Source: an uncultured Melioribacter sp.
GTDB lineage: Bacteria > Bacteroidota > Ignavibacteria > Kapaibacteriales > Kapaibacteriaceae
DNA: 64,000 bases
Direction of reading: 5' to 3'
NCBI GenBank assembly: GCA_964393485.1
Contig: CAYMTW010000001.1
Location: forward strand, 64,832-128,831
Within the stretch, counting starts at the first letter, position 1; every line of letters begins with the position of its first letter. The notes below the pieces were generated by a model, which had not been told where the DNA came from, made no database searches, and saw only the letters and a list, made by a program, of their open reading frames with translations. Positions 5,402 to 19,550 of this stretch are shown one piece after another. Position numbers and translations under genes: made by a program.

Positions 5402-6051
5402 ACGACCACTTTCTTTTCGTCCTGAGTGAACATGGGAACACCGAAGATCTCCAATGGAATCACTTCAATGCGTAGGCCCTTGAATGTTGCTTTTGCCTCA
5501 GCGATCTCTTCATCGAGGTATCCACCCTTGAGAAAGGCGCAGACAGCGGTGGGCTTGACCAGCGGTCGAACCCATTCAAGAAGGACTGCCGTTCGAGCAA
5601 CGGCACGGGAGATAACAACGTCAAACGAGCCAATATAGTGGGGCTCCCGCGCCAGATCCTCACATCGTGCAGCTTGGACGCTGATATCCTTGAGCATCGT
5701 GTGTTGGGCGAACATCGCTGCCATGGTGGCCTTTTTTTTGATGGAGTCCACCAGAAACATCTTCAGATCCGGGCGGGCAATCTTGATTGGGATCCCCGGC
5801 AAGCCCCCTCCGGTACCCACATCCAGCACACGTGCCTTTGGTCGGATGTTCACATACTTCAGGATCGTCAGAGAATGCAGAATATGACGGTCCCAGACGT
5901 TGACCTCATCCTTGCGGGAGATCATGTTGACCTTGGCATTCCAGTAGATCAACTCGTCATGATAGCGCTTCAGGGCATCGACCTGCTCCTTTTCCAGCAG
6001 GATATCGTTAGCCGAGCAGGTCGTCCAAAAGTCAAGGGGAGTCATTGACAT
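5386..6051 (-). CDS. rsmG: 16S rRNA (guanine527-N7)-methyltransferase RsmG (GidB)
   Basis: SAM-binding VLDVGTGGGLPGIPIKI, typical ~220 aa length, RsmG-like N-terminus. Confidence 0.9.
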   Translation of the reverse strand: MSMTPLDFWTTCSANDILLEKEQVDALKRYHDELIYWNAKVNMISRKDEVNVWDRHILHSLTILKYVNIRPKARVLDVGTGGGLPGIPIKIARPDLKMFLVDSIKKKATMAAMFAQHTMLKDISVQAARCEDLAREPHYIGSFDVVISRAVARTAVLLEWVRPLVKPTAVCAFLKGGYLDEEIAEAKATFKGLRIEVIPLEIFGVPMFTQDEKKVVVCRFS

Positions 6052-6098
6052 GCATTCAACGCAGGGATGGTGGATATGAGGTCGTAGTTTCGCACAGT

Positions 6099-6731
6099 AT
6101 GCATGTTCCCTTTTTCAGCGTGATCATCTGCACCTATCAGCGTGCAGCGTTGATTCCCCGGGCTCTGGACTCCCTTCTTCGTCAGGACGAGACCGACTGG
6201 GAGGCGATCATCGTCGATGACGGGTCAACAGATCCCACGAGCTGGGTGGTGCAAAAATACACCGATGCCGACGCGCGATTCCGGTATTTCCATCGCGAGC
6301 ATGGCGGTGTTGCCAGATCCCGGAACTATGGAGTTTCTCAGGCAAAGGGGCTTTTTGTGACCTTCCTCGACAGTGATGATGAGTTTCTCGTTGATCACCT
6401 TTCGAGCCGGCAACAGATGCTCCTGGCTAATCCGGAAGTTATGCTGCTGCATGGCGGCGTGGAGATCATTGGTGATTCAATGGTCCGGGACCGTCGTGAC
6501 CCGTCGCTTTGGATCCATCTCGATGAATGTGTCATCGGTGGCACGTTTGTCATCCGTCGTGATCTGTTCGATCGTGTTGGCACGTTCTCAGAGATCGACT
6601 ATGGTGATGATGCAGAATTTTTTGAGCGCGCAGCTGCCTCTGGAGTGATTATCGCCCGGACGGACCACCCGACGTATCGTTACTATCGCAACACCCAAGA
6701 TGCCCTGACGAGGACCTATGGCACGACGTGA
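6099..6731 (+). CDS. glycosyltransferase family 2
   Basis: FSVIICTYQR...IIVDDGSTD...FLDSDDE (GT2 DXD). Start set to ATG 6099 (MHVPFF); the ORF is open from 6045. Confidence 0.85.
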   Translation: MHVPFFSVIICTYQRAALIPRALDSLLRQDETDWEAIIVDDGSTDPTSWVVQKYTDADARFRYFHREHGGVARSRNYGVSQAKGLFVTFLDSDDEFLVDHLSSRQQMLLANPEVMLLHGGVEIIGDSMVRDRRDPSLWIHLDECVIGGTFVIRRDLFDRVGTFSEIDYGDDAEFFERAAASGVIIARTDHPTYRYYRNTQDALTRTYGTT

Positions 6732-7374
6732 ATCAAAACAGGCTAAGTCCATTCGTCTCAATATGATCCTGGATCGACTTACCATCGCCTACCCAGATGC
6801 ACGGGTTGGACTTGACTTCACATCACCTCTTGAGCTGCTGATCGCCACGATCCTATCCGCCCAGTGCACCGATGAGCGTGTGAACAAGGTCACCCCGCCA
6901 CTCTTTGCCCAGTTCAAGAACGTCAGAGATTATGCCGAGGCCTCTCTCGATGAACTAGAAGAGTATGTCCGGACTACCGGTTTCTATAAAAACAAGGCCA
7001 AGAATATCCGGGAATGCTGCCGTCAGCTCCTTGATCGATTCTCGGGTGAGGTTCCGCGGACACTTGAGGAACTCGTCACGCTGCCGGGTGTAGGACGCAA
7101 GACGGCGAACTGTGTTCTGAGTAACTGCTTTGACATACCTGGTTTGACGGTCGATACTCATGTTACACGGATCACCAATCTTCTTGGGTTTGTTGACACG
7201 CAGGATGCTGTGAAGATTGAGTTTGCCTTGATGGAGATCCTCAATCCGGTGCGATGGAATCAGTTTGACACATTGATCATCAACCATGGACGGCGAACAT
7301 GTGTTGCCCGAAAACCACGATGTATCGACTGTACAATCATCGATCTTTGCCCATCCAAGAAAAAAACACCGTAG
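6718..7374 (+). CDS. nth: endonuclease III
   Basis: HhH-GPD motif LPGVGRKTANCVL and C-terminal 4Fe-4S cluster CX6CX2CX5C (CVARKPRCIDCTIIDLC). Confidence 0.95.
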   Translation: MARRESKQAKSIRLNMILDRLTIAYPDARVGLDFTSPLELLIATILSAQCTDERVNKVTPPLFAQFKNVRDYAEASLDELEEYVRTTGFYKNKAKNIRECCRQLLDRFSGEVPRTLEELVTLPGVGRKTANCVLSNCFDIPGLTVDTHVTRITNLLGFVDTQDAVKIEFALMEILNPVRWNQFDTLIINHGRRTCVARKPRCIDCTIIDLCPSKKKTP

Positions 7375-7438
7375 CGAAGTGTCACGAAATGCTCGCCAGA
7401 TTGCTCAATGGCCGAAACCACCGGAGAACACTTCGACC

Positions 7439-9445
7439 ATGATCCTTCGCCTGACGGGGTACCTGCCCCACTCCCTTTTGTGCGTTCTTACCATCACTCT
7501 GCTACTATGCCCAGCGGCTCGGGCGCAGCCCGTTGGTATCATCGCCGGTCTGAGCATTCCCACTCCGTCTGCAGATTTTCGACAGCTCGGGACCTATCCC
7601 TCCTGCTGTCCTCGCTTCACCGACGGCAGTGGGTCGGGGTTTCAGTTCGGCGGTTGGTACGAGCGGGATTTAACGGGACCCTTGAGTTTGTCGACACGGC
7701 TGATGCTCACGTACGAGTCCGTGAACTTTGCTTTTGATGAACGAAGTTTCGTGGCAGACCTTCGTGACACGCCGCGAGTGGTTCCGGCCGTGTTCCGTCA
7801 TCAGCTCGCTTCAACTCAAGCACAGATTGTTCTTGAGCCTCTGTTGTCAGTGCGATTCGCCGGAAACGGCAGTCTGATGTTCGGACCACGTCTCGGGGCT
7901 GCGGTGACATCAACCTTTCAGCAGACTGAGTCGCTTATCGAACCCGCAGAGTTCGGCTCGTTTATCAATTCCGGACGTGTTTGGATTGATCATTCCGGGA
8001 ACATTCCTTCGACACCAGCTCTTAGCCTAGCCCTCACCGGGGGCGTGCGATGGTCGCTCAGACTCACCACGTCCGGTAGTGCCGTGATGCTCCCGGAGCT
8101 TTCGTTCTCCTACGCATTGACACCTGTTTCTCAGGGAGCTGATTGGTACGCACATGCCATTCGACTCTCGGTTGCGCTTGGGTGGAGGCCCGGCCTCGGA
8201 CAACCAGTACCGGAAAAGGTTCCAGCATCGACATTACCGCCACCAGTCTTGACACGTCGCGCTCCCGATCGGCCGGAACCACCGAAGATCACGCTTCGAG
8301 TTCTGGGTGTCAATGATGACGGAACCACCACCCCAGACCCGGTGATCAGCCGACGAGAGGTCTTTATCCGCACCCTGCATCCGATACTCGGAAACATCTA
8401 CTTTGACGAAGGTTCGTGGCAAATCCCTGACCGCTATGAGCGTGGAATTGCCCGTGCTCAGCGCGATACGCTCTCACTAAGCCCTCTCGAAGCACTGCAC
8501 GGTGAGTTGGCCATCATTGCCGCTCGCATCAAGAATCGTCCGCAGGCCCGCCTTCGTATTGGCGGCATGACCTCCAATACCCCCCGAGATCAGGGGGCTT
8601 CTCTTGCTCGACGCCGAGCCGAGACGGTGCGTGATAAGCTCGTCGAACTAGGTGTCGAGCCTCAGCGCATCGATCTGATCCCAGGTTCTGGCTTGTTCCC
8701 CGCCACACGGGCCTCTGACAGCCTGCAGAAGCCCCTTGCCATCGAAGAGAACCAACGTGTGGAGGTTTCCTGTTCCGATTTCGTGGTCATGGCGCCGATT
8801 ACGCTGGGAATGACAGATGTTACGGTGCAACCTCGACGAATTCGGATACTAGACACCGTTGCCTCGAGTGCACTCACAGAAGTAAACGGTCATGTGCGCG
8901 TCGATGATCAACGGATGCCGGTCGAACGAATGAGGAGTGCTCGGAGCGGTTCGGAAGATGTTGATGTTTCGTCACTGGTTGCCTCCTCGCGATCATCCAG
9001 CCTTGAGGTTCAGATCCAAGCGAAGGATACTGCCGGACAGTCCAGCATGCAGAAGATCGCTGTCCCGATCAGACAGCAATCTGTGGAAAAGTGGCGTGCC
9101 GAGCGCACTGGCGACCTGTTGATTGAACGATACGGGCTTGTCCTGTTTGAGTTTAATAATGCAGGCCTCGGGGACCTGCACCGCAAGATCATCGATATCA
9201 TCCGCTCGCGTATTACCCCACAGACTACCATTTCGATCCTAGGAATGACCGACGTTTTGGGGTCAGACGACTACAACAGAGACCTCTCGCTGCGTCGCGC
9301 AAAGGAGGTTGCCAAAGTCCTTGGTGTCGCATCGGTGACGGTTGACGGAAAAGGCGCGTCTGCACCGCAGTTTTCGAATGATTTACCAGAAGGACGAGCT
9401 TCAAACCGGACCGTAGTTATCGAGTTGAAAACAAAGGTTCCCTGA
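7439..9445 (+). CDS. outer-membrane protein: putative N-terminal beta-barrel plus two OmpA_C-like peptidoglycan-binding domains (paralogue 1)
   Basis: Signal peptide ...LLLCPAARAQ, then ~250 aa with a beta-strand pattern. Central OmpA-like domain is RRRAETVRDKL...NQRVEV. C-terminal OmpA-like domain is GSDDYNRDLSLRRAKEVAKVL...NRTVVIEL. Start set to ATG 7439; the ORF is open from 7286 and overlaps nth. Confidence 0.8.
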   Translation: MILRLTGYLPHSLLCVLTITLLLCPAARAQPVGIIAGLSIPTPSADFRQLGTYPSCCPRFTDGSGSGFQFGGWYERDLTGPLSLSTRLMLTYESVNFAFDERSFVADLRDTPRVVPAVFRHQLASTQAQIVLEPLLSVRFAGNGSLMFGPRLGAAVTSTFQQTESLIEPAEFGSFINSGRVWIDHSGNIPSTPALSLALTGGVRWSLRLTTSGSAVMLPELSFSYALTPVSQGADWYAHAIRLSVALGWRPGLGQPVPEKVPASTLPPPVLTRRAPDRPEPPKITLRVLGVNDDGTTTPDPVISRREVFIRTLHPILGNIYFDEGSWQIPDRYERGIARAQRDTLSLSPLEALHGELAIIAARIKNRPQARLRIGGMTSNTPRDQGASLARRRAETVRDKLVELGVEPQRIDLIPGSGLFPATRASDSLQKPLAIEENQRVEVSCSDFVVMAPITLGMTDVTVQPRRIRILDTVASSALTEVNGHVRVDDQRMPVERMRSARSGSEDVDVSSLVASSRSSSLEVQIQAKDTAGQSSMQKIAVPIRQQSVEKWRAERTGDLLIERYGLVLFEFNNAGLGDLHRKIIDIIRSRITPQTTISILGMTDVLGSDDYNRDLSLRRAKEVAKVLGVASVTVDGKGASAPQFSNDLPEGRASNRTVVIELKTKVP

Positions 9446-9543
9446 GGAAACGTTTTGGTCTTTTGGTTGTCTATCTTGTCCGTTCACATCTTGGCCGACA
9501 AGACCTACTTCTGCGCCGGCGTTCAAATCATCGAGGAATTCGA

Positions 9544-12500
9544 ATGAAGCACCTAGTCAGTATTGCCGTTATTGCATGTTTGGTTGCTAACGCGATAGAC
9601 AACTTCGCACAAGCTGACGCTACAAGGTACGTTCCGGTGCGGATCCGCCCACTAGATGCACAAACTATAGAGTGTCGTTTTGCGGTCTTTCAGTCAGATC
9701 CGGCTATACCCATCATGATAGCTGACATCGATCGGGGACAGATAGCGGAAAACGGAGCATTCGTTGAAGCGAGTACCGTCACGTTCAAGCGTGACACGGC
9801 CCGAACGGCTCGCAATCTGTCGTTGTTAGTGGCATTGGACCTCTCGAAATCAAATGATGTAAAGCTGTCATCCAACGTTACCCCGCTGGAGATTGCCAAG
9901 AAAGCAGCGATGGCCGCTTCGGGCTTTATGGACATGACCTATGATGAGGTTGGATTGGTAGGTGTGGATGCCTTGGCCGAGCTATCCTGCGGTCTAACAA
10001 CCGACAAATCATCATTTAACAGTGCCGTCGCTGGTGTTTCGACAACGGGAGGGTTCAATCTCCGACGTGGACTGTTTGATGTTCCCGGTGGTGCTCTCGT
10101 TCAACTACAAAATGCCCGCAATGCCAGAGCTCTGATAATCTATACAGATGGATCTTCGACCTTTAATACAAAGTCGGCAATCGAGATTGCTCGTACATAC
10201 GGAATTCGAGTATACGTGATTGGTATCGGTACGAGAGTCAATTCCGACTTGAATGCTCTGGCCGACTCATCTGGTGGTGGAAGTGTTGACATGGTAACCA
10301 CGGTCAACGAGGCTATTAGCTATTCGGTTGCCTATCTCACGGACGCAAAGTATCGGCAGCTCCATACCATAACATGGAAGACAAAGATCCCGTGCGATAC
10401 CACACGCACACTTAGATTGGGTAGCCTAGGGGCGCGTGAGACACCGTTCACATACCCAGCATCATTTGTCCGTACCCTCATGGTATCAGATAAGGGTGTC
10501 GATTTTGGGATCGTGCCGCAGGGACAGGCTGTCACAGAAACGGTTACGCTCACGGCTGTCAATGGACCCGTTACGATCAGTTCCTTCGATCTTGTGCAGT
10601 CCGGCGGATTTGAGCTCGTCAACCCCCCAGTGGTGCCACGAACGGTCAATCCTGATCAGAGCGCAACATTTACGTTCAAGTATACTTCGGCAACAACTGA
10701 TGCCGTCTATGCGCGGTTAAACATCGTTACTGATGCATGTGATGTGCAGCCCTTGGTGCTGAGAGCTGGTTCGGTCTATTCCGGTGAGAAACTTCAACTG
10801 GTGTCTCCCACTGCAAACGATCAATTCATTGCCGGGAAAGACACGCTGATCCGTTGGACCAATGCCCTACCGGATGAGTTTGTCCGACTTGAAGTGAGTT
10901 ACGACAATGGCGTAACGTGGTACAGCATTACGGAGAGTGCTACCGGTCTGGCCTATAAATGGAATCCAGGTCCTCTAACTGGAGAACGGTGCCAGATGCG
11001 CGTATCATCAACCGTCATTGACCAGCGCAGTGTAATCGAGCTCAAGGGACAGACGCAGCCCCTTTACAGCTGCATCTTCACTGAGGATGACAAGTTGGTC
11101 CTTACCGGTGGTGACGATGGGTCCGTGCGGGCGTGGGATGCGCGCACAGGGCAGCAGACACGTATCGTCGGAATTCACGGTAATTGGGTGTGGTCACTGG
11201 CGCAGCAGCCCGGGTCCTCGATCGTGGCCTCAGCAAGCCACGACGGCACTGTTCGCGTCTGGGATTTCGGCTCAAGCAAACGTGTTGCAACCATCAATGT
11301 TGATTCCAGGGCATGGTCCGTAGCATTTAGTGCCGATGGAAAATCACTTGTCATTGGTACCGATAAGTCCATCCTCCGTGTAGCGACCGATTCGTGGTCA
11401 GTTGACAAGATCACTCCCGCGCTTGATGGTCCGGTGTATGATATCCATTCGATGACGGGCGGCCGCATCATCTCTGCTGAAGGCCGTCGAGTCGTCGCTC
11501 GTGATCTAGGAAGTCTAGATACACTGAAGTCTTTTTCAGACCCTCAACAGAAAGGGGCCGTGTACGCCGTCAGCTCACCTGCAAACGGCGACGTCATCGT
11601 GACGGGAGGCGCTGATTTTGTGCTGAGGAAGTACTCATTCAGTGACGCAAAACTCGTTGGGAAGACAACGCCAGGCGTTGGAAGCATCCTGGCACTGTCC
11701 TACTCACCTGACGACACCAAGATCCTTACTGCTGGGGGTGATGCTACCGCCAAACTTTACTCAGCCGACAACCTTTCTCCGCTGGCCGCATTAGCTGGCC
11801 ACTCAGGCATCGTGTACTCAGCGATGTATTCACATGACGGAAAGAATGTAGCTACTGCTTCCACCGACTATACGGGCCGCATCTGGCCCCTTGATAGACT
11901 CGGTATTATCAGCGACATATCTGATGGTGTTTTCAGCATCAGTGGCGGAACTGTTGAATCATCCGATGTCTCAATGGGTGATGTAGTACTTGGCGAGGGG
12001 GCTGATAAGCTCGCCACCGTGATTCGCAATACAGGGACTGCACCATTAGTGATCCGGTCGCTACGTGTGACATCCGAAGGAGATCCAACAGACTTCGATC
12101 TCACGACACCACCACTTCCTATGACACTCGCTGCCGGTGAAGCGTTCCAAGTGGATGTGTCATTTACACCTTCTGAGCAGGGATTGCGCACCACTACGGC
12201 AGAGATTCAGACGGGTCGAGGTCCCTCGACGATCACCATCACCGGCAATGGCTCATTGCCAGCTCTCAGAGCTCCTGAAACACTCAACTTCGGACGTCAG
12301 ATTGCCAACGCAGCGGTCGTTGATAGCGTGATCACACTTACGGCCAACGGTGACCCATCGACAACCTACACGATCGCGCTAACGCAGATTCTCGAGTATC
12401 AGCGCTCTGTGTTCAGCATCGTCTCCGGAGGAGGACCATTCACAATGAAGGGTGGAGAAACGCGACGCATCACCGTTCGATTTGATCCTAAGTCGTTTGG

Positions 12501-13896
12501 TCGATTTGCTGCCCTCCTAAACATCCGAATTGATTCGCGCCCATCTCAGGTGGTCCGCCTTTACGGTGAAGCTACTGGTGAAGGGCGTCTATCAGCAACA
12601 TCATCGGTACTATATCCATCCTCGCCCTGCACGTCATTACCGAGTCAACGAAGCATACTCCTTCGTAACTCCGGGAACTCAGAGACGATCCTTTACTCGA
12701 TCGGTCTCGAGGGTTCTAACACTGATGAGTTCGAGATCCTCTCGCCCCCTACCTTCCCGTATACCATGGCAGCAAAGGACAGTCTTTCTCTAACTATACG
12801 ATTCGATCCAAAGCGTGTTGGCGTTAAGGACGTTCGTGTTGTTACCTCTTCAAATGCTTCGAATGCCATCAACGGTCGTACCGTTGTCAGTCTCATCGCT
12901 CGCCGAGATTCCGTCGGTTTCGAACTTTCTCGAACAACGGTAGACCTCGGGAATGTTGCTGAAGGAGAAACACAGAGTGATCGATTGCAGATCTTGAACA
13001 CGGGTACCATTACACTCCAGTGGCCACGCGGTGGCATCGTGTTGGGTCCATTCCGTATTGACAGTATAACCCCAGATATCACGCCCGGACGCCGAAGTTC
13101 GGACATGCTCGTTACCTTCACGGGCGGTCAGGCCGGGAGAATGTATGAGACCACGTACACTTTTGTTGATACAATCTGTAATCGAAGTCAGACGGTAACA
13201 CTTAAGGCCTACGTCAAGAGCATCATTGGTGGACGCGTTCGCATTGGCAAGGTTGATGCACGTAGCGGGGAGCTCGTCTCCGTTCCGGTGTACGTTTCGA
13301 ATCTGACCAATATGGACCGCACTACCGCAAGGGAATTCGTCTTGTACTGCAGTGTCAATGGACGCATCCTTACCCCATCCGGCGCCACTCCGGTCGGCAC
13401 TCTCAAATCGGATGGTACTCGGAGTTTTAGCATTCCGGTTCCATTGACATCAAAAGACTCTGTTGCAACGATGATGACTTTTCAGACAACATGGGGCAAC
13501 GACACGTCATCATTCATCAGAATCGACAGTATTACTGTAGCCGATACACTGCAGTTTCGAACGTTCAACGGTGAGGTTCGTCTGGTGGACCTATGTCGTA
13601 TCGGTGGACGTGCGCGTTTGATTTCTCTTCAGACCAATGGTGTCGGTGTTGCAATAAACCCAACGCCCGCTTCAAGTCAGGCATCGGTTACACTTGATCT
13701 TGTCGAACGAGGCCGCACCAGTGTGCGCCTGTATGATACGCAGGGACGCAGTCTCGCTCTGCTTTTTGACGAAGTCACGCCGGCTGGTCGTTGGACTGTA
13801 CCAGTAGAACTATCCTCACTGCACAATGGGACCTACTTTGTGGTCATGACAACTCCATCGGAAACATTCACTCAGCGCCTTGAGGTGATCCGATGA
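9544..13896 (+). CDS. giant secreted T9SS cargo: vWA (MIDAS) + 5 ASH/PapD-like beta-sandwiches + WD40 propeller + cohesin-like module + T9SS C-terminal sorting domain
   Basis: Signal peptide MKHLVSIAVIACLVANAIDNFAQA.
- vWA with DLSKS (9838-9852) and IIYTDG.
- WD40 repeats (GGDDGSVRAWD, ASHDGTVRVWD, GGDATAKLYS, ASTDYTGRIWP) at ~11035-11898.
- Repeated ~100-aa units ending ...F.P...G at ~11926-13212.
- Por-type tail ...VRLYDTQGRSLALLFDE...GTYFVVMTT...QRLEVIR. Confidence 0.85.
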   Translation: MKHLVSIAVIACLVANAIDNFAQADATRYVPVRIRPLDAQTIECRFAVFQSDPAIPIMIADIDRGQIAENGAFVEASTVTFKRDTARTARNLSLLVALDLSKSNDVKLSSNVTPLEIAKKAAMAASGFMDMTYDEVGLVGVDALAELSCGLTTDKSSFNSAVAGVSTTGGFNLRRGLFDVPGGALVQLQNARNARALIIYTDGSSTFNTKSAIEIARTYGIRVYVIGIGTRVNSDLNALADSSGGGSVDMVTTVNEAISYSVAYLTDAKYRQLHTITWKTKIPCDTTRTLRLGSLGARETPFTYPASFVRTLMVSDKGVDFGIVPQGQAVTETVTLTAVNGPVTISSFDLVQSGGFELVNPPVVPRTVNPDQSATFTFKYTSATTDAVYARLNIVTDACDVQPLVLRAGSVYSGEKLQLVSPTANDQFIAGKDTLIRWTNALPDEFVRLEVSYDNGVTWYSITESATGLAYKWNPGPLTGERCQMRVSSTVIDQRSVIELKGQTQPLYSCIFTEDDKLVLTGGDDGSVRAWDARTGQQTRIVGIHGNWVWSLAQQPGSSIVASASHDGTVRVWDFGSSKRVATINVDSRAWSVAFSADGKSLVIGTDKSILRVATDSWSVDKITPALDGPVYDIHSMTGGRIISAEGRRVVARDLGSLDTLKSFSDPQQKGAVYAVSSPANGDVIVTGGADFVLRKYSFSDAKLVGKTTPGVGSILALSYSPDDTKILTAGGDATAKLYSADNLSPLAALAGHSGIVYSAMYSHDGKNVATASTDYTGRIWPLDRLGIISDISDGVFSISGGTVESSDVSMGDVVLGEGADKLATVIRNTGTAPLVIRSLRVTSEGDPTDFDLTTPPLPMTLAAGEAFQVDVSFTPSEQGLRTTTAEIQTGRGPSTITITGNGSLPALRAPETLNFGRQIANAAVVDSVITLTANGDPSTTYTIALTQILEYQRSVFSIVSGGGPFTMKGGETRRITVRFDPKSFGRFAALLNIRIDSRPSQVVRLYGEATGEGRLSATSSVLYPSSPCTSLPSQRSILLRNSGNSETILYSIGLEGSNTDEFEILSPPTFPYTMAAKDSLSLTIRFDPKRVGVKDVRVVTSSNASNAINGRTVVSLIARRDSVGFELSRTTVDLGNVAEGETQSDRLQILNTGTITLQWPRGGIVLGPFRIDSITPDITPGRRSSDMLVTFTGGQAGRMYETTYTFVDTICNRSQTVTLKAYVKSIIGGRVRIGKVDARSGELVSVPVYVSNLTNMDRTTAREFVLYCSVNGRILTPSGATPVGTLKSDGTRSFSIPVPLTSKDSVATMMTFQTTWGNDTSSFIRIDSITVADTLQFRTFNGEVRLVDLCRIGGRARLISLQTNGVGVAINPTPASSQASVTLDLVERGRTSVRLYDTQGRSLALLFDEVTPAGRWTVPVELSSLHNGTYFVVMTTPSETFTQRLEVIR

Positions 13897-15911
13897 AATG
13901 CTTCCCCTTTTTGGCTCTGACTCTCGTCTTCATCGGATTCAGTGGCATTCAATCTTCTTCACAGGCACCAGATGAGCGTCGGGCTCGTGTCGGTGCCGTT
14001 CTGCAAGGGAGTCTGGACTTTCATTCAGCATCCTTTACGCGTTTGCCTGAGATCGACAACTGCTGTCCGGGCTTTACTGGCGGATCTGGCATGGGGTGGT
14101 CGGTTGGACTTTCCTACAACACTCCACTGGCGTCTCCGTGGTCACTCGATGTCCGTGCGGGTTATCAGCATGGTAACGTTGATATGGTGACCCGAGAATC
14201 GAAACTCATCGCACAGACCGACGGAACGGCTCAAACCGCCACTATACGCCACGATATGTCGCTGGGCGTTTCTCGGATGACCATTGAGCCCCTTGCCGTC
14301 TATGCACTTAGCCCTCGCATGGGACTTCGCATGGGGCTCTGGGGTGCCTATCAGCTCAACGGCACATATGGCCAGGGAGAAGCTCTGGAAACCCCATCCA
14401 ACGCGGTGTTTGATAATGGACAAAAGCTTCGCAATCAGTCCGAGGGAAAGCTCACATCTCTGGCAAGCATAAACCTTGGTCTGACCGTCGGCCTTGGTAC
14501 AGAGCTACCGTTGAACTCGGATGGTACTCTGATTATGTCACCTGAGCTGTTGTTTACCTTCGCACCGACCAACATCCTGCAGAATACATCGTGGTCGATG
14601 GCCATGATTCGTGCGGGAGTTGTCGTGTCTTTCTCTCCGGAGGAGGAAAAGGATGAGATTTCAGATCTGGAACTATTCGAGGTAGCCCGCACGGTGACGC
14701 GCGCCCCATCGGATGTCGGAGAGCCGCTCGCCGTGCCGGTTGTTTCCTACACTGGACTTCTGGAGAGTGGCAGTGTGAGTGACCGTAAGACGATACGGGT
14801 AGAGGAGTTTGCCTCGAACCGCGTTCGTCCTCTGTTGCCCTATGTATTCTTTGACTCAAAGTCAAATACACTCTCACCGCGCTACCGTCAGCTCTCGTCA
14901 GAACAGGTTGAATCGTATTCCCTGGCGAATTTCTACAACCTCGACGCAATGGTCACGTATTACCAGCTCCTTAACGTCATTGGAAAACGCATGCAGGAGA
15001 ATCTGGAGGCCAGCATCTCTATCACCGGCTGCACGGATTCCAAGGAAGCAGAGTCAACCGAGGATCTCGGTAAGCGCCGTGCAACAGTAGTTCGAAATTA
15101 CCTGGTTGATACATGGAAGATAGCCTCATCACGGATCGCCGTTGACCAGCGTGCTGTGCCATTGGCCGCATCAAATGAGTCCGATGCCGATGGAGCAGCC
15201 GAGAACCGTCGTGTTGAGATCTCCAGCTCTGATCCTACGATCTTGGCCGCCGTGACTTCTAATGACACGATGCGGGTCTTTGATCCCCCTGCCGTGCGAT
15301 TCAACCTTGCCGTGAACAATTCTACCGCGCTCAAGTCCTGGACGCTTTTTGTCTCGGAGGGAGATCGGATCATCAAAACATTCCATGGTTCCGGTGCGCC
15401 ACCTCAGGAGGTTGATTGGCGCATTGCCGAGCAGGCTCGTTTCATTCCTCGTGGTACACGTAAACTTGAATACATGCTTGTCGTTCAGGATTCCAACGGT
15501 ACCGTTATCCCAACGGAATCGGCAACAATCCCTGTCAGCGAGGTCACCATCGCAGAAAAGCGTTCAGGGGGCAGCACTGATAAGTCCATTGACCGGTTCT
15601 CTCTGATCCTGTTCGGTTTTGACAAGTCTGATGTTACACCAGAGCATCAGGGTACGCTCGGAAGTGTCAAGCGTGCCATTACCCCGACGTCCACAGTCAC
15701 CATTACTGGGTACACTGATCGAAGCGGTGCAGAGGAGTACAACCGGCGTCTTAGTGAGCAGCGAGCTCGTGCCGTAGCTACGGCACTAGGCACGCAACGT
15801 GCAGCAGTAGTCGGTCAAGGTGAAATTCTGCCTCTCTATGACAACACAACTCCTGAAGGTCGATTCTACTCGAGGACGGTGGAAGTCATCGTTGAGACGC
15901 CAATGAAGTAA
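13893..15911 (+). CDS. outer-membrane protein: putative N-terminal beta-barrel plus two OmpA_C-like domains (paralogue 2)
   Basis: Same architecture as 7439-9445. Signal peptide MKCFPFLALTLVFIGFSGIQSSS. OmpA-like domains are KRRATVVRNYL...NRRVEIS and GAEEYNRRLSEQRARAVATAL...SRTVEVIVE. ATGA overlap with the cargo stop. Confidence 0.8.
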   Translation: MKCFPFLALTLVFIGFSGIQSSSQAPDERRARVGAVLQGSLDFHSASFTRLPEIDNCCPGFTGGSGMGWSVGLSYNTPLASPWSLDVRAGYQHGNVDMVTRESKLIAQTDGTAQTATIRHDMSLGVSRMTIEPLAVYALSPRMGLRMGLWGAYQLNGTYGQGEALETPSNAVFDNGQKLRNQSEGKLTSLASINLGLTVGLGTELPLNSDGTLIMSPELLFTFAPTNILQNTSWSMAMIRAGVVVSFSPEEEKDEISDLELFEVARTVTRAPSDVGEPLAVPVVSYTGLLESGSVSDRKTIRVEEFASNRVRPLLPYVFFDSKSNTLSPRYRQLSSEQVESYSLANFYNLDAMVTYYQLLNVIGKRMQENLEASISITGCTDSKEAESTEDLGKRRATVVRNYLVDTWKIASSRIAVDQRAVPLAASNESDADGAAENRRVEISSSDPTILAAVTSNDTMRVFDPPAVRFNLAVNNSTALKSWTLFVSEGDRIIKTFHGSGAPPQEVDWRIAEQARFIPRGTRKLEYMLVVQDSNGTVIPTESATIPVSEVTIAEKRSGGSTDKSIDRFSLILFGFDKSDVTPEHQGTLGSVKRAITPTSTVTITGYTDRSGAEEYNRRLSEQRARAVATALGTQRAAVVGQGEILPLYDNTTPEGRFYSRTVEVIVETPMK

Positions 15912-17017
15912 TGAAGATCGTCATCTTCAACTGGCAGGACCGTACGCATCCCCAGGCGGGTGGTGCCGAAACGCACCTGCACGAGATTTTCGGACGTATG
16001 GTCAAGCGAGGCCACAGCGTAACTCTTGTTGCGTGTGACTATGACGGTGCACCATCGGAAGAAGTCATCGATGGTATCACCGTGATCCGTATCGGGAGCC
16101 GTGCCACGTACAATTTCGCGCTACCAATATGGTGGCAGAGACACGGCCGAGAATGTGGGTTTGATCTTGTTGTTGACGATATCAACAAGATCCCTGTCTT
16201 CAGCCCGCTCTTTGTCGATGTACCAGTTCTGGCCCTTATACATCACCTTTTCGGTTCTTCGATCTTTTCTGAAGCGGGAGCCGTTGCTGGTTCGTACGTC
16301 TGGTTGGCAGAGCGGCTGATCCCTCGAGTCTATCATGACACTCCCCTTGCCGTTGTTTCAGAGAGCACACGTCGTGAGTGCATCGAGGCAGGCCTTGCTG
16401 AGAGAAATCTCGACATTGTATACAACGGTGTCGATATCGAGCACTTTCCAATGAGAGTGTGCGAGAAGAACGAGAAGCCGACCGTAGCCTACTTTGGGCG
16501 ATTGAAGAGATACAAGTCGGTAGATCATGTCGTACGTGCTATGAAGATCGTTGTGCAACAACTTCCTTCGGCACGACTCGAGATTCTTGGAAGGGGCGAT
16601 GATGAGCCTCGTCTGCGAACATTAGTGGCTGAGACTGGGCTTGCCAACCATGTGACATTTCATGGTTTTGTGAACGATGAAGCTAAGGTTCGACTTTTAT
16701 CCAAGGCACATGTGGTAGTGAATCCCTCGAAAAAGGAAGGTTGGGGAATCACAAATCTTGAGGCAAATGCATGCGGCACGCCGGTCATTTCTGCCGATTC
16801 CCCCGGACTACGAGATTCGGTCAATAATGGCGTATCGGGTCTTCTGTATCCCTATGGCGATATTGAGGTTCTTGCACAGAGGATCATGTCCGTCATTACA
16901 GATGCGAACCTGTCTTCAACACTCTGCAAGGGTTCTGTCGAGTGGGCTCGTCAGTTTTCATGGGATCGATCGTCTATCGAAATGGAAGCAGTATGTCGCC
17001 GCACAATCTCTCGTTGA
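15911..17017 (+). CDS. glycosyltransferase family 4 (GT-B, group 1)
   Basis: N-terminal GGAETHLHEI and C-terminal VNPSKKEGWGITNLEANACGTPVI (E-X7-E type motif); TAATG junction with the upstream gene. Confidence 0.85.
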   Translation: MKIVIFNWQDRTHPQAGGAETHLHEIFGRMVKRGHSVTLVACDYDGAPSEEVIDGITVIRIGSRATYNFALPIWWQRHGRECGFDLVVDDINKIPVFSPLFVDVPVLALIHHLFGSSIFSEAGAVAGSYVWLAERLIPRVYHDTPLAVVSESTRRECIEAGLAERNLDIVYNGVDIEHFPMRVCEKNEKPTVAYFGRLKRYKSVDHVVRAMKIVVQQLPSARLEILGRGDDEPRLRTLVAETGLANHVTFHGFVNDEAKVRLLSKAHVVVNPSKKEGWGITNLEANACGTPVISADSPGLRDSVNNGVSGLLYPYGDIEVLAQRIMSVITDANLSSTLCKGSVEWARQFSWDRSSIEMEAVCRRTISR

Positions 17018-18975
17018 TACGGCTTTTATCGGCATTGCTGCTGGTTGGGTCTGTTGCGTCTGCCCAAAACATTAGAGATAGTCGAGGAAGTGATTTTTGG
17101 CTGGCGGTGCCACCCAATGAAAACTCGGCATCGACAGTTGCGGATCCCTCTTTCGTATCGCTGCTTGTTGCATCGGATACGATTCAGACAACCGTCATTG
17201 TGTTTGCACGGCGAAGAACTGGTGAGACCGATACCGTTGTCACGGTGGTGCCGCCATCGACGCTATGGGAGATCCGTCTTGCACAATACACTCGCTACCA
17301 GCTGCAGGGAGTTGAATCTCTCAATGGTCAAAGCCCTGATGGAGAGCGGCCCACACCTGCCAGCATACACGTCATGACGTCGCATGACGTTTCACTGTAT
17401 GCCGTACTGCGTGCCCCTTTATCAAGCGATGCCTGGCTTGTTTTGCCGACTAATGCCCTATCGACGGACTACCTTGTCATGTCCTACCCATCGAGCTATG
17501 CGACAACAGGGCTCACCCCCACTCTGTATCCAAGTCAGTTTGTGGTGGTAGCTACCGAGGACTCCACGGTAGTGAATGTGATTCTCAGTGCTGACCGTTC
17601 CGACCGTGCTCTCGGAAGGAACAGGACTGTCACACTCGCCAAAGGCGAGTCGTACCTAGTACAGGCCAAAGTCGACAACACGAGGCGCGATGACTTAACA
17701 GGCTCTTCTGTGACGTCAAACAAACCTATCGTTGTGCTTGGTGGACATCGGCGTGCCCTTGTTCCCGTTACCCTTCCAAAGACATCCCGGGACTGTCTAG
17801 TCGAGCAGTTACCCGGTATTGAGACATGGGGCCGCCAGATCATTGTACCACCGCTGATTCCGCCGACAGACGCTGATGTCAGTGGGCCTAGTGATGTTCC
17901 CATCTGCCGCGTGCTAGCTGCTAACGACTCGACACTCATCACCGTGAACTCGCAGCCACCATATCTGCTCAATAAGGGGGCATTCTGGGACCTCCCCCTC
18001 GATCAAGCTCTGGTTTTCTCTGCAACGAAACCAATACTTGCCGCGATCATTGATCGATCAGCCAACGCTTCTCAATCCTCACGACTTACCGGCGACCCAT
18101 CGATGCTGATCGTGCCGCCGGTAGAGCAGTATCTGCGCTCATACATCGTCGGTAGCGTTGGGCCCAACTCCAGTGGCCGACAGATCTACACGACGCATAA
18201 CATCACCGTCATCGTTCCGACAGTTGCTGTTCCCTCTCTGACTCTTGACGGAGGTCCCAACTTTACGTCGGTGACGTCCGTTCTTGGTACAGCCTACTCC
18301 GTAGCCTCTGCTCGCGTCTCACCAGGAGCACATCGCGTCCGGTCTGATTCGGCCTTGGGCATCTTTGTCTATGGCTATGGTCCAGCGGAGTCATATGGCT
18401 ACACGGGAGGTATGGCCTTTGAGCGCCTTTATGATCCTGTCATCCGGCTTAAAGCACTCAACGCTGCCGGGACTCCAGGAAAGCGGGATACAATAACCGT
18501 GATCATCGATAGTGTCGACCGTCGAAACACGGAAGCCCTTGCCGGAGTTAGAAGCCTACGTTTTCGTCTTCGATTTGATGCCACCTCATTCGTAATGAGA
18601 CAAGCAGGTGAGCTTGACTCAACACGATCACAGTATATTCTGCACCTAAGCACGACTGTGTTGACCATCAAGCCTGGCGACACGCTCGCTCAGATCGTGG
18701 GGAACCATACGCTTGGTCTTGCTGATTCATCAGCTATCGAAGTAGATTCAGCCACGTGGTACTCCGGTGACCGACGACCTCTGTCTATCATCACGACGTA
18801 CGTTCCGGGCGAACTCCTCACGCTTGGAGTTTGCGAAGCAGATAATCGACAGCGACTGTTTGATCCCCGCAAGCCCCTTCCAGCGATCATGCGTCCAGGG
18901 TATTATGACATCCGCGGAGCGTACGTCGGTGAGTCACTTGATGATATGGCTCCAGGCGTGTACTTCCGCCGATGA
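16993..18975 (+). CDS. secreted IgGFc-binding-N-terminal-domain-like protein with cohesin-like module and probable T9SS tail
   Basis: Signal peptide ...LLLVGSVASAQ. Motifs I associate with the IgGFc_binding family: GSDFWLAVPPN, DCLVEQLPGIETWG, GDPSMLIVPP, YGYGPAESYGYTGG. C-terminus is YYDIRGAYVGESLDDMAPGVYFRR. Start set to ATG 16993. Confidence 0.65.
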   Translation: MSPHNLSLIRLLSALLLVGSVASAQNIRDSRGSDFWLAVPPNENSASTVADPSFVSLLVASDTIQTTVIVFARRRTGETDTVVTVVPPSTLWEIRLAQYTRYQLQGVESLNGQSPDGERPTPASIHVMTSHDVSLYAVLRAPLSSDAWLVLPTNALSTDYLVMSYPSSYATTGLTPTLYPSQFVVVATEDSTVVNVILSADRSDRALGRNRTVTLAKGESYLVQAKVDNTRRDDLTGSSVTSNKPIVVLGGHRRALVPVTLPKTSRDCLVEQLPGIETWGRQIIVPPLIPPTDADVSGPSDVPICRVLAANDSTLITVNSQPPYLLNKGAFWDLPLDQALVFSATKPILAAIIDRSANASQSSRLTGDPSMLIVPPVEQYLRSYIVGSVGPNSSGRQIYTTHNITVIVPTVAVPSLTLDGGPNFTSVTSVLGTAYSVASARVSPGAHRVRSDSALGIFVYGYGPAESYGYTGGMAFERLYDPVIRLKALNAAGTPGKRDTITVIIDSVDRRNTEALAGVRSLRFRLRFDATSFVMRQAGELDSTRSQYILHLSTTVLTIKPGDTLAQIVGNHTLGLADSSAIEVDSATWYSGDRRPLSIITTYVPGELLTLGVCEADNRQRLFDPRKPLPAIMRPGYYDIRGAYVGESLDDMAPGVYFRR

Positions 18976-19550
18976 TCATTGCATTGAATAAGCCCTGGGG
19001 CGTGCTGTCACAGTTCACACCAGAGCCGGGAAGTCGGTACTCGACACTTGACCAGTTTGGTCTGCCTGAACACGTGTATCCGATCGGACGCCTTGATGCC
19101 GACAGCGAGGGCCTTCTTCTGCTGAGTGATGAAAAGGCGCTAGTATCTCGCCTTCTTGAACCAGTTCACGCCCATCAACGTACATATTGGGTGCAAGTCG
19201 AGGGTATTCCCGCTGCAGAGTCATTGCATGTTCTGGAAACTGGTGTCGACCTCAAGGGAACCATGACTTCTCCCTGCAAAGTCCGGTTCCTTCAACCGGA
19301 ACCACAGGTCTGGCAACGCACACCGCCAATTCGGAATCGTAAGTCAATACCGACATCGTGGTTGGAACTGACGCTCACGGAGGGTAGGAACCGACAAGTC
19401 CGCCGCATGACGGCCAAGGTAGGACACCCTACGTTGCGTCTGATCCGCGTCTCGAGCGGGGGCCTAGGACTTGATGTTCTTGAGCTAGGATCAGGAGCTT
19501 GGCGCATCCTGGGTGCTGACCAACGAGCTCTTCTTTTTCAAAGTCGTTAG
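18972..19550 (+). CDS. rluE: 23S rRNA pseudouridine synthase RluE-like (no S4 domain)
   Basis: Catalytic GRLDADSEGLLLLS; long match to the remembered E. coli RluE segment PPIR.RKSIPTSWL..TL.EGRNRQVRRMTA.VG.PTLRLIR. Confidence 0.85.
   Translation: MIIALNKPWGVLSQFTPEPGSRYSTLDQFGLPEHVYPIGRLDADSEGLLLLSDEKALVSRLLEPVHAHQRTYWVQVEGIPAAESLHVLETGVDLKGTMTSPCKVRFLQPEPQVWQRTPPIRNRKSIPTSWLELTLTEGRNRQVRRMTAKVGHPTLRLIRVSSGGLGLDVLELGSGAWRILGADQRALLFQSR

What the first reader, a model, noticed from the sequence alone, without database searches (positions are those of the whole stretch)
7439..18975. Surface module: giant vWA-WD40 T9SS cargo bracketed by two paralogous barrel + double-OmpA proteins, then GT4 and a second T9SS cargo
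Five same-strand genes are tightly packed. There is an ATGA overlap at 13893, a TAATG junction at 15911, a 25-nt overlap at 16993 and an ATGA overlap into rluE at 18972.

The 1450-aa cargo (9544-13896) is flanked on both sides by paralogues of 668 and 672 aa with one shared architecture. Each has a signal peptide, then ~250 aa with an outer-membrane beta-barrel-like strand pattern, then two OmpA_C-like peptidoglycan-binding domains separated by a beta-rich linker.

I know of no described system in which a T9SS substrate is bracketed by duplicated peptidoglycan-anchored barrel proteins. The nearest precedents are the PorP/SprF-type barrel partners encoded next to type-B-CTD cargo in Flavobacterium, and the OmpA_C-containing PorE of Porphyromonas.

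My inference is a dedicated outer-membrane/peptidoglycan-tethered docking platform for a giant adhesin, possibly with a glycosylation step (GT4) and a co-displayed partner (16993-18975).
Basis: partly seen in the sequence, partly recalled or inferred. Interest (0 to 1): 0.7.

Follow-up and report, generated by a model that had tools for sequence, protein, structure and literature searches.

The report
Cell-wall-tethered anchor paired with secreted adhesins
Two OmpA-like outer-membrane proteins that grip the cell wall flank a giant secreted adhesin, and matched gain and loss of cysteines across related genomes suggests that such adhesins are fastened to these anchors by a disulfide bond, a way of holding type IX secretion cargo on the cell surface that I did not find described.

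Summary
It comes from a Kapabacteria/Ignavibacteria-type genome.

- **Flanking paralogues ("FAM").** Each has a signal peptide, an 8-stranded OmpA-like barrel and two OmpA_C domains around a beta-sandwich. They do not match PorP/SprF or PorE models.
- **Middle protein.** It is a VWA–WD40–Ig protein with a valid T9SS type A CTD.
- **"Second cargo".** It has an IgGFc_binding domain but only a vestigial CTD that no model recognises.

Results from 80+ related loci:
- FAM genes often lie directly beside T9SS cargo: 38 of 68 have cargo immediately upstream, against a 12% background.
- Every adjacent cargo (48/48) has a cohesin-fold module just before its CTD. Only 5 of 44 other CTD proteins do.
- The module ends in one conserved Cys, and FAM's first predicted extracellular loop has a conserved CC.
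- The two features co-vary. 59 of 60 cargos beside Cys-bearing FAMs keep the Cys, and 7 of 7 beside Cys-less FAMs lack it, sometimes within one genome.

Best reading: a wall-tethered anchor that holds cohesin-module cargo, probably by a disulfide. The pairing is inferred from genomes only and is not obligatory.

The parts
7439..9445 (+). FAM-A (668 aa): signal peptide, OmpA-like barrel region, OmpA-like domain 1 (degenerate, Ser in place of the usual Asp), beta-sandwich, OmpA_C domain 2.
   Evidence: ORF. Two OmpA stretches, 60.9 bits. Full-length 28% identity to B. Placed in the family alignment.
7604..7609 (+). Codons for Cys56-Cys57 of FAM-A (motif SCCPRF) in the loop between predicted barrel strands 1 and 2.
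   Evidence: 249 of 261 family representatives have two Cys in this loop.
9544..13896 (+). Cargo 1 (1450 aa): signal peptide, VWA, Ig, WD40 propeller, five choice-of-anchor-D/HYDIN-type Ig domains, cohesin-like module, T9SS type A CTD.
13255..13623 (+). Cohesin-like pre-CTD module of cargo 1 (aa ~1238-1360). It ends in the motif LCRIGGRARL.
   Evidence: Local iterative HMM. A profile of the module plus CTD hits cohesins 1g1k and 2vn5 at E 0.006-0.008 over the whole domain.
13594..13596 (+). Codon for Cys1351 of cargo 1, the junction Cys about 20 aa before the CTD.
   Evidence: Co-varies with the FAM loop Cys.
13660..13881 (+). T9SS type A C-terminal sorting domain of cargo 1 (aa 1373-1446).
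   Evidence: TIGR04183 26.5 bits, cut-off 23. PF18962 27.9 bits, cut-off 27.
13893..15911 (+). FAM-B (672 aa): signal peptide, 8-stranded barrel (32-247), OmpA-like domain 1 (282-450), beta-sandwich (454-551), OmpA_C domain 2 (563-671). Its start overlaps the cargo stop (ATGA).
14061..14066 (+). Codons for Cys57-Cys58 of FAM-B (motif NCCPGF) in predicted extracellular loop 1.
15911..17017 (+). GT4-family glycosyltransferase (368 aa) with no signal peptide. Conserved at this position only in the close Kapabacteria cluster.
16993..18975 (+). IgGFc_binding-domain protein (660 aa): signal peptide, PF17517 domain, cohesin-fold module (aa 492-623), Cys614, and a vestigial shortened CTD.
18832..18834 (+). 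Codon for Cys614 of the IgGFc protein (motif GVCEADNRQRLFDP), the junction Cys.
   Evidence: Kept in 94 of 95 orthologues.

Best explanation
What is shown:
- FAM-A and FAM-B belong to a large, unnamed family found in Ignavibacteria/Kapabacteria-type genomes.
- Each is built like an extended OmpA. An 8-stranded barrel sits in the outer membrane with long strands projecting outward. Two OmpA_C domains and a beta-sandwich lie on the periplasmic side and keep the Asp/Arg pair that binds peptidoglycan in solved OmpA_C domains.
- FAM genes are genetically coupled to a subclass of T9SS cargo. That subclass is defined by a cohesin-fold module placed directly before a type A-like CTD.

What is inferred:
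- The cargo crosses the outer membrane through the T9SS.
- Its single conserved Cys, at the module-CTD junction, then forms a disulfide with the conserved Cys-Cys pair at the tip of FAM's first extracellular loop.
- One plausible chemistry is attack of the cargo thiol on a strained vicinal disulfide made in the periplasm before barrel insertion.
- The adhesin would then be held covalently on a protein that is itself fixed to the cell wall.

In this window, two anchors (A, B) and two module-bearing proteins (the VWA-WD40 giant and the IgGFc_binding protein) give a 2:2 set. The role of GT4 is unknown. It may make a surface glycan used in the same display step.
For: Architecture:
- Pfam and NCBIfam domain hits.
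- AF2 model of B, pLDDT 89.5.
- Foldseek matches to OprF/OmpA/Pal domains and to OmpA/Ail/OpcA barrels.
- 27 of 67 family members hit PF13568.
- Asp609, Arg624 and Arg396 are invariant in the family alignment.

Family size:
- 2,600 clusters at 50% identity reach E<=1e-30. The top 150 are essentially all full length.

Genetic coupling:
- Outside the close synteny group, 38 of 68 FAM genes have a same-strand CTD protein directly upstream, ten of them with 4-nt start/stop overlaps. 10 of 69 have one directly downstream.
- The background is 40 of 332 ORFs. Odds ratio 9.2, p 6e-14.
- Coupling is seen in 15 or more FAM sequence clusters (average-linkage cut at about 38% identity), with unrelated passenger domains.
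- 8 of 8 tested neighbours hit PF18962.

Module:
- 48 of 48 adjacent cargos have the module, against 5 of 44 other CTD proteins. All five exceptions lie within a few kb of a FAM gene, and three of them directly beside one.
- Cohesin fold: Foldseek probability 1.0, TM 0.5-0.63 to CipA and other cohesins. Profile hits to cohesins as well.
- Negative control: 4 of 4 IgGFc+CTD paralogues without the module have no FAM nearby.

Cys coupling:
- The loop has 2 Cys in 249 of 261 representatives.
- A Cys within 30 aa before the CTD occurs in 56 of 62 module cargos against 8 of 44 others.
- Paired states: 59 of 60 cargos beside Cys-bearing FAMs have the junction Cys, and 7 of 7 beside Cys-less FAMs lack it. 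Fisher p 9e-9, not corrected for phylogeny.
- Two further checks started from Cys-less FAMs. P0118 was a clean prospective test, and both of its upstream cargos lack the Cys. P0271 led back to the L031 locus, whose Cys-less cargo had already been listed.
- Same-genome contrasts: L045 against L031, and L040 against L051.
- Loss inside a Cys-bearing clade: L043 against L030, 42% identity.
Against: - There are no experimental data of any kind, and no cargo-anchor complex model could be computed.
- The extracellular position of the CC loop rests on the standard OmpA topology applied to the AF2 secondary structure. No coordinates were inspected.
- Coupling is not obligatory. About a third to two fifths of FAM genes sit among housekeeping or LPS genes and many of these still keep CC.
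- Some module proteins stand alone (P0215, P0220).
- The reverse census, from module to FAM, could not be done without bias.
- The Cys-loss events number only about four or five lineages. One pair is discordant (L012), where the upstream protein ends right after the module with neither Cys nor CTD.
- Disulfide formation outside the cell and a vicinal disulfide in FAM are both conjecture.
- Type A cargo in studied species is attached to LPS by PorU. Nothing here shows that route is replaced.
Confidence: 0.5

Rival explanations
1. FAM is a cargo-specific export helper or shuttle, working like PorP/SprF does for type B CTD cargo. It would be needed to move module-bearing cargo through or away from the T9SS translocon, not to hold it on the surface afterwards. 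Any Cys-Cys link would be transient.
For: - Multiple paralogues per genome, each beside a different cargo, with translationally coupled gene pairs. This is the genomic signature of PorP/SprF-type B pairs (PMC12618676, PMC9143113).
- The coupled feature includes the CTD region.
Against: - No similarity to PorP/SprF was found. The barrel is a small 8-stranded OmpA/Ail type with no lumen to hold a CTD.
- Type A CTDs are reported to use the general PorV shuttle (PMC12618676).
- Two peptidoglycan-binding domains argue for a static tether.
- The IgGFc protein keeps the module and the Cys although its CTD has decayed.
Confidence: 0.15
2. FAM is simply a general OmpA-type envelope tether, a structural link between outer membrane and peptidoglycan. 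Large adhesin genes tend to insert beside it or be co-expressed with it. The two proteins do not touch.
For: - The architecture is essentially OmpA/OprF with extra periplasmic domains.
- Many FAM genes lie among housekeeping or LPS-core genes: GT9 heptosyltransferase, SufB, DXS.
- The window cluster itself sits between nth and rluE.
Against: - It does not explain why all 48 adjacent cargos, and almost no other CTD proteins in the same loci, carry the cohesin-fold module.
- It does not explain why the loop Cys and junction Cys are lost together, pair by pair, within single genomes.
Confidence: 0.15
3. The contact is non-covalent or periplasmic. Either the cohesin-fold module docks on FAM without a disulfide, or FAM's periplasmic beta-sandwich receives the cargo before export, much as PorE-PorP complexes are proposed to organise cargo. 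On this view the cysteines serve another shared purpose, such as a metal site or a folding checkpoint.
For: - Cohesin folds are protein-docking modules.
- FAM has a conserved beta-sandwich of unknown role between its OmpA domains.
- Cys-less pairs exist and keep both the module and the adjacency. The pairing therefore does not strictly need cysteines.
Against: - No dockerin-like segment was seen in FAM.
- The strictly matched presence and absence of one cargo Cys and the loop CC is most simply read as a bond between them.
- In half of the modules this is the only Cys.
Confidence: 0.2

Closest known systems
Type B CTD cargo with PorP/SprF-like and PorE-like proteins (Flavobacterium johnsoniae, Porphyromonas gingivalis PG1035-PorP-PorE)
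   Same: - T9SS cargo genes lie next to genes for a dedicated outer-membrane barrel partner, with several paralogous pairs per genome.
- Six F. johnsoniae porP-like genes also neighbour porE-like (OmpA_C) genes.
- A PorP-PorE link to the cell wall has been proposed for non-mobile cargo (PMC9143113, PMC12618676).
- FAM combines barrel and peptidoglycan binder in one chain.
   Different: - The cargo here has a type A-like CTD, not type B.
- The barrel is OmpA/Ail-like and gives no PorP/SprF hit.
- PorE's TPR, propeller and CRD domains are absent. NF052230 scores 33.8 bits against a cut-off of 600.
- The shared cargo signature is a cohesin-fold module with a junction Cys, which is not described for type B cargo.
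OmpA/OprF family outer-membrane proteins
   Same: - N-terminal 8-stranded barrel followed by a periplasmic OmpA_C peptidoglycan-binding domain.
- Foldseek matches both parts.
- The family keeps the Asp and Arg positions that bind peptidoglycan in solved OmpA_C domains.
   Different: - FAM has two OmpA_C-like domains with a beta-sandwich between them, and much longer barrel strands.
- It has a conserved CC-Pro loop motif.
- Its genes are systematically adjacent to T9SS cargo genes.
PorU/PorZ-mediated attachment of type A cargo to A-LPS (P. gingivalis, Tannerella, Prevotella)
   Same: Both retain type A CTD cargo covalently on the cell surface after export. GT4-type enzymes contribute to the glycan anchor in P. 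gingivalis (from my own knowledge of VimF; not tested here).
   Different: That anchor is a glycolipid joined by transpeptidation at the CTD cleavage site (PMC8545088, PMC7468200). Here the proposed anchor is a protein and the proposed bond is a disulfide. Whether both routes act on the same cargo is unknown.
Fibrobacter succinogenes OmpA-TPR-fibro-slime-cellulase surface complexes
   Same: In another FCB-group bacterium, OmpA-family proteins are proposed to tie complexes of T9SS-secreted surface proteins to peptidoglycan (PMC6851124).
   Different: That model rests on proteomics and co-fractionation. It reports no gene pairing, cohesin-fold module or Cys signature, and the authors state that cohesins are absent.
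Cellulosomal cohesin domains
   Same: The pre-CTD module has a cohesin fold: Foldseek probability 1.0, TM 0.5-0.63. Profile hits cover the whole domain.
   Different: - Sequence similarity is marginal. PF00963 scores 13.6 bits in cargo 1 against a cut-off of 24.1.
- No dockerin partner was found.
- The host is Gram-negative and the module sits directly before a T9SS signal.

Membership tests
OmpA family (PF00691, OmpA_C-like peptidoglycan-binding domain) | Domain match above the curated cut-off, plus the Asp and Arg that bind peptidoglycan in solved OmpA_C domains. | tested here: met
   A scores 60.9 bits and B 81.4 bits against a cut-off of 27.2, two stretches each. Domain 1 of B alone scores 32.4 bits. 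Foldseek matches OprF, OmpA, Pal and YfiB with TM 0.65-0.82. D609, R624 and R396 are invariant. A's first domain has Ser in place of Asp.
OmpA-like small outer-membrane beta-barrels (PF13505 / PF13568) | N-terminal membrane barrel matching the family models. | tested here: inconclusive
   B scores 21.2 bits on PF13505, below the 28.7 cut-off. A has no hit. 27 of 67 family members hit PF13568, best E 8.5e-12. The AF2 model shows eight long strands, and Foldseek matches the OmpA transmembrane domain, Ail, OpcA and OmpT.
PorP/SprF family (PF11751 / TIGR03519) | Sequence match to the PorP/SprF barrel model. | tested here: not met
   No PorP/SprF hit for A or B (Pfam at E<=0.01, NCBIfam at E<=0.1), nor for any of 67 family members in Pfam.
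PorE (NF052230) | TPR, beta-propeller, carboxypeptidase-regulatory-like and OmpA_C domains in a lipoprotein. | tested here: not met
   23.9 and 33.8 bits against a cut-off of 600, and only over the OmpA_C part. No TPR, WD40 or CRD in FAM.
T9SS type A sorting domain (TIGR04183 / PF18962), cargo 1 | C-terminal domain match above the curated cut-off at the extreme C-terminus, together with an N-terminal signal peptide. | tested here: met
   TIGR04183 26.5 bits (cut-off 23) at aa 1373-1446. PF18962 27.9 bits (cut-off 27). The profile hits solved CTDs of RgpB, mirolase and 8glk_D. The signal-peptide-like N-terminus is seen.
T9SS type A or type B sorting domain, protein 16993-18975 | C-terminal domain match to TIGR04183, PF18962 or TIGR04131. 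| tested here: not met
   No NCBIfam hit at E<=0.1 and no Pfam hit on the C-terminal 191 aa at E<=1. The alignment shows an internally deleted and truncated CTD remnant. The listed orthologues carry only PF17517 in their precomputed annotation.
Cohesin domain (PF00963) | Match to the cohesin model, or a cohesin jelly-roll fold. | tested here: inconclusive
   Sequence: 13.6 bits in cargo 1 (cut-off 24.1) and 28.6 bits in a relative's tandem copy. Profile against the PDB hits cohesins at E 0.006-0.46. Fold: the IgGFc protein model matches many cohesins with probability 1.0 and TM 0.5-0.63. Dockerin binding was not tested.
GT4 glycosyltransferases (PF00534 / PF13439) | Both GT-B halves match. | tested here: met
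   137.2 and 63.2 bits. No equivalog-level NCBIfam assignment.
IgGFc_binding domain proteins (PF17517) | Full-length domain match. | tested here: met
   208.7 bits over profile positions 1-297 of 297.

The most novel reading that the evidence does not exclude
Ignavibacteria/Kapabacteria-type bacteria have a third way of retaining T9SS cargo on the cell. It would be distinct from A-LPS attachment and from PorP/SprF binding. A cohesin-fold module before the CTD would present a single Cys that forms a disulfide with a vicinal Cys-Cys pair on the outward tip of a dedicated OmpA-like barrel. That barrel is in turn clamped to peptidoglycan by two OmpA_C domains. Cognate Cys-bearing and Cys-less pairs would coexist in one genome.
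Probability: 0.35. Interest if true: 0.85.

Novelty: new variant of a known kind. Interest (0 to 1): 0.7.

Why it matters
How T9SS cargo is kept on the cell surface is settled only for A-LPS attachment in a few oral Bacteroidota, and partly for PorP/SprF partners of type B cargo. For the many T9SS-bearing lineages outside Bacteroidia it is unknown.

This analysis defines three things:
- A large unnamed protein family, about 2,600 clusters at 50% identity.
- A cargo signature: a cohesin-fold module, a junction Cys and a CTD.
- A specific residue-level prediction that can be tested with one non-reducing gel or one cross-link mass-spectrometry experiment.

If true, it would give a covalent protein-to-protein anchor that runs from adhesin to cell wall. 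It would also give a simple sequence rule for predicting which secreted proteins stay cell-bound in these environmentally abundant bacteria.

Tried and rejected
- **PorP/SprF or PorE membership of FAM.** Searched with Pfam and NCBIfam on A, B and 67 relatives. No PorP/SprF hit, and PorE only through the shared OmpA_C part.
- **Reverse census from the cargo module.** A word-indexed protein search with the module profile returned one hit only. A degenerate DNA pattern was judged too unspecific and was not run.
- **Structure of the cargo module from an alignment of locus sequences.** The module was modelled inside the IgGFc protein instead.
- **Promoter and terminator scan of 6000-19700.** Promoter-like sites were at chance level. 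Terminator-like sites were about two standard deviations above it, but none was convincing or informative.
- **Genome-wide loss of extracytoplasmic cysteines as the cause of the co-variation.** Rejected because Cys-bearing and Cys-less pairs, or FAM copies, occur in the same MAGs.
- **VWA/WD40 content as the feature linked to FAM.** Rejected because partner cargos have unrelated passenger domains.
- **Cargo-anchor complex prediction.** Not possible with the tools available.

Full report
**1. What is in the window**

Five + strand ORFs occupy 7439-18975.
- ATGA at 13893.
- TAATG at 15909-15913.
- A 25-nt overlap between the GT4 stop (17017) and the ATG at 16993.
- ATGA at 18972 into rluE.

The flanks are housekeeping genes. 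Upstream are gidB, a GT2 and an endonuclease III-like gene. Downstream are rluE and the ccmF/E/C genes. Homologues carry source names such as Candidatus Kapabacteria, Ignavibacteria and Chlorobiota. The window therefore comes from that lineage.

**2. The two flanking proteins (called FAM here)**

A (668 aa) and B (672 aa) align over their full length at 28% identity, E 1e-59. Each has two OmpA (PF00691) stretches.

An AlphaFold2 model of B, built on 67 relatives, has mean pLDDT 89.5. It shows, in order:
- a signal helix;
- eight long strands (residues 32-247);
- a short helix;
- OmpA-like domain 1 (282-450);
- a beta-sandwich (454-551);
- OmpA-like domain 2 (563-671).

Foldseek against the PDB matches the C-terminal domains of OprF, OmpA, Pal and YfiB (TM 0.65-0.82). 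It also matches the barrels of OmpA, Ail, OpcA and OmpT. 27 of 67 relatives hit PF13568 (OMP_b-brl_2), and none hits PorP_SprF. PorE's NCBIfam model is matched only weakly, through the shared OmpA_C part.

FAM is therefore an extended OmpA/OprF-type protein. It is not a PorP/SprF or PorE homologue.

The family is large and uniform. A profile search of 1.84 billion representative proteins gives 2,600 clusters at E<=1e-30. The best 150 are essentially all full-length proteins of 600-900 aa. Sources that give these proteins any name call them only 'OmpA family protein', 'OmpA-like peptidoglycan-associated protein' or 'hypothetical protein'.

**3. The middle protein**

The 1450-aa product has the following parts:
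- a signal peptide;
- VWA;
- a WD40 propeller;
- five choice-of-anchor-D/HYDIN-type Ig domains;
- a C-terminal domain that passes both TIGR04183 (26.5 bits, cut-off 23) and PF18962 (27.9 bits, cut-off 27).

It is a genuine T9SS type A-like cargo by sequence criteria.

**4. The 'second cargo'**

Protein 16993-18975 has a signal peptide and a complete IgGFc_binding domain. It hits no CTD model, even at permissive thresholds.

Alignment with orthologues and with true cargo tails shows a CTD remnant. It lacks the first strands and, in this genome, the last strand as well.

About 100 listed clusters of this ~640-720 aa orthogroup carry only PF17517 in their precomputed annotation. The ~1000-aa paralogues mostly also carry PF18962. 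Calling it a T9SS cargo is therefore not justified by the usual test.

**5. Synteny**

The whole five-gene block, with the same flanks, recurs in genomes whose proteins are only 39-51% identical to the window's.

More informative is what happens in distant relatives. I fetched 80 genome loci anchored on FAM, called ORFs, and built local HMMs for the CTD. The close synteny group was excluded. Results:
- 38 of 68 FAM genes have a same-strand CTD protein directly upstream. Ten of these have 4-nt start/stop overlaps.
- 10 of 69 have one directly downstream.
- The background in the same loci is 40 of 332 ORFs. Odds ratio 9.2, p 6e-14.

All eight neighbours sent to Pfam hit PF18962. Their passenger domains are unrelated to each other: Ig_7, PKD, Kelch, HYDIN-type Ig.

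The pairing is spread over at least 15 FAM sequence clusters (average-linkage cut at about 38% identity). Several genomes contribute two or more FAM loci. Arrangements vary: cargo-FAM (commonest), FAM-cargo, cargo-FAM-cargo, cargo-FAM-FAM and cargo-FAM-cargo-FAM. The window's bracket is one variant.

Some FAM clades are consistently unpaired. They sit next to a GT9 heptosyltransferase, Rrf2-SufB or DXS.

**6. What the partner cargos share**

The window cargo aligns to the partner cargos through its last ~220 residues. An iterative HMM seeded on residues 1226-1368 finds a ~125-aa module directly before the CTD. Its distribution is:
- 48 of 48 FAM-adjacent CTD proteins have it.
- 5 of 44 other CTD proteins in the same loci have it. 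All five lie within a few kb of a FAM gene, and three of them directly beside one.
- The window's IgGFc protein and its orthologues have it.

A profile of module plus CTD hits solved T9SS CTDs with its second half. With its first half it hits cellulosomal cohesins (1g1k, 2vn5; E 0.006-0.008, whole domain).

An AF2 model of the IgGFc protein (pLDDT 90.3) matches many cohesins, with probability 1.0 and TM 0.5-0.63.

As a negative control I examined four IgGFc+CTD paralogues that lack the module. None has a FAM gene nearby.

The link is not absolute. Two distant module-bearing IgGFc proteins stand apart from any FAM gene. For one of them the contig ends just downstream.

**7. Cysteine co-variation**

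*The two conserved features.*
- The module ends in a motif C-x-x-G-G-x-R-L, about 15-20 residues before the CTD. In half of the modules this is the only Cys.
- A Cys within 30 residues before the CTD is found in 56 of 62 module cargos, against 8 of 44 other CTD proteins.
- FAM has a conserved P-x-C-C-P-x-F motif in the loop between barrel strands 1 and 2. 249 of 261 representatives have two Cys there, 7 have one and 5 have none.
- With the usual OmpA topology this loop is extracellular. The N-terminus and the C-terminal domains would be periplasmic, and the short turns 81-82 and 139-142 lie on the opposite side. This is an inference.

*Paired states across adjacent pairs.*
- FAM with loop Cys: 59 of 60 neighbouring cargos have the junction Cys.
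- FAM without loop Cys: 7 of 7 lack it (L043, L047, L069, L051, L031/L094, and two cargos in L092).
- Fisher p 9e-9. This is not corrected for relatedness.

*Two further checks, started from Cys-less FAM proteins chosen without using the neighbour's sequence.*
- P0118 has two upstream cargos, ending VSMAGGKRL and INYAGGAPRL. This was a clean prospective test.
- P0271's relative L094 proved to be the same sequence as L031. Its cargo (IVSEGGWRL) had already been listed as Cys-less, before I linked it to P0271. This case is therefore not fully blind.

*Evidence against a genome-wide cause.*
- One MAG has both a CC/Cys pair (L045) and a none/none pair (L031).
- Another MAG has a CC-bearing FAM (L040) and a none/none pair (L051).
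- L043 has lost both cysteines, although its FAM is 42% identical to that of L030, which keeps both.

*Other observations.*
- The single discordant case, L012, is an upstream protein that stops right after the module, with neither Cys nor CTD.
- In the IgGFc orthogroup 94 of 95 proteins keep the Cys. The one that lacks it has a real CTD and no FAM nearby.

**8. Mechanism proposed**

Shown: architecture, family, gene coupling, the shared module and the Cys co-variation.

Inferred:
- The cargo is exported by the T9SS.
- The cohesin-fold module ends up next to the membrane.
- Its junction Cys bonds to the CC tip of the FAM barrel.
- FAM holds the assembly to peptidoglycan through two OmpA_C domains that keep the Asp/Arg pair known to bind peptidoglycan in solved OmpA_C domains.

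A strained vicinal disulfide, formed in the periplasm and attacked by the cargo thiol after export, would need no outside oxidant. The C-C-P arrangement recalls the vicinal disulfide of the nicotinic receptor C-loop. That parallel is from my own knowledge and is not evidence.

The window has two anchors and two module-bearing proteins. Which pairs with which cannot be told. GT4 is conserved only in the close lineage and has no signal peptide. A role in making a surface glycan is a guess.

**9. Comparison with what is known**

- *Closest system.* Type B CTD cargo with PorP/SprF-like partners. Six F. johnsoniae porP-like genes neighbour porE-like OmpA_C genes, and a PorP-PorE link to the wall has been proposed (PMC9143113). 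Cognate shuttle specificity has been shown for type B, while all type A CTDs are said to use PorV (PMC12618676). Here the cargo signal is type A-like, the barrel is OmpA-like, barrel and wall binder are one chain, and the proposed bond is covalent.
- *A-LPS attachment by PorU/PorZ* (PMC8545088, PMC7468200). This is the known covalent route for type A cargo. Nothing here shows whether it also operates on these proteins.
- *Fibrobacter.* OmpA-family proteins have been proposed to tie T9SS-secreted enzyme complexes to the wall, but without gene pairing or a residue-level model (PMC6851124).
- *Literature search.* Searches of the held library for OmpA, cohesin or intermolecular disulfides together with type IX secretion found no description of this arrangement.

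**10. Verdict**

- The unit is a cohesin-module cargo plus an OmpA-like anchor.
- The unit is widespread in this lineage.
- It carries a testable disulfide signature.

All of this is computational. The coupling is frequent but not obligatory. The number of independent Cys-loss events is small.

Noticed in passing
window 16993-18975, and P0122-P0221: A whole orthogroup of ~640-720 aa IgGFc_binding proteins keeps the cohesin-fold module and the junction Cys, but its T9SS CTD has decayed to a short remnant. A few ~717-aa members still give weak CTD hits. In this genome and in L001 the gene ends at ...GVYF(R/H)R, right at the overlap with rluE. How such a protein would leave the periplasm is unexplained.
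   Followed up: partly
L058:10082-11173, L059:5944-7020, L064:2597-3658: One Cys-less, cargo-less FAM clade is followed, with a 4-nt overlap, by a GT9 heptosyltransferase (LPS core). This hints that some family members have a general envelope role.
   Followed up: partly
L084:11096-13540, L085:11042-13584, L086:11034-12728: IgGFc_binding+CTD paralogues that lack the module are followed by an S41 (CtpB-like) peptidase in 3 of 4 loci, and then by DUF3108 in two of those. In L085 the pair sits right after the same GT2-nth genes that precede the FAM cluster in the window.
   Followed up: no
L013:2137-5688, L017:9978-13529, L029:3706-7947, L030:2841-6437: Some partner cargos carry two tandem copies of the cohesin-like module before the CTD.
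   Followed up: no
window 24381-27467 (- strand): A second true T9SS cargo in the window (SBBP repeats, Ig_3, PF18962 31.2 bits). It has no cohesin-like module and no FAM neighbour, which fits the module-specific pairing.
   Followed up: yes
window 1255-5401 (- strand): DUF4175 (1165 aa) and DUF4159 genes lie upstream of gidB, and the same arrangement appears in L001/L002. Function unknown. They are not part of the cluster.
   Followed up: no
window 36341-40798 and L093:12779-17128: A Wzz-like, Wzy_C (O-antigen ligase-like) and PBP2-like gene trio occurs in the window. In L093 the same trio lies downstream of an orphan Cys-less FAM gene, with a DXP synthase gene in between.
   Followed up: no
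L028:10011-12782: In one locus the cargo-FAM pair is followed by a TPR-CHAT (caspase-like) protein.
   Followed up: no
L007, L010, L011, L015, L017, L038 (record titles): Several loci that clearly belong to this Kapabacteria/Ignavibacteria-type family are labelled Hyphomicrobiales, Patescibacteria, Armatimonadota, Chromatiales or Didemnitutus in their records. These are probably binning or labelling errors.
   Followed up: no
L012:1414-7866: A 2150-aa protein upstream of a CC-bearing FAM ends immediately after the cohesin-like module, with three stop codons and neither junction Cys nor CTD. It could be a truncated gene or a natural CTD-less variant.
   Followed up: partly
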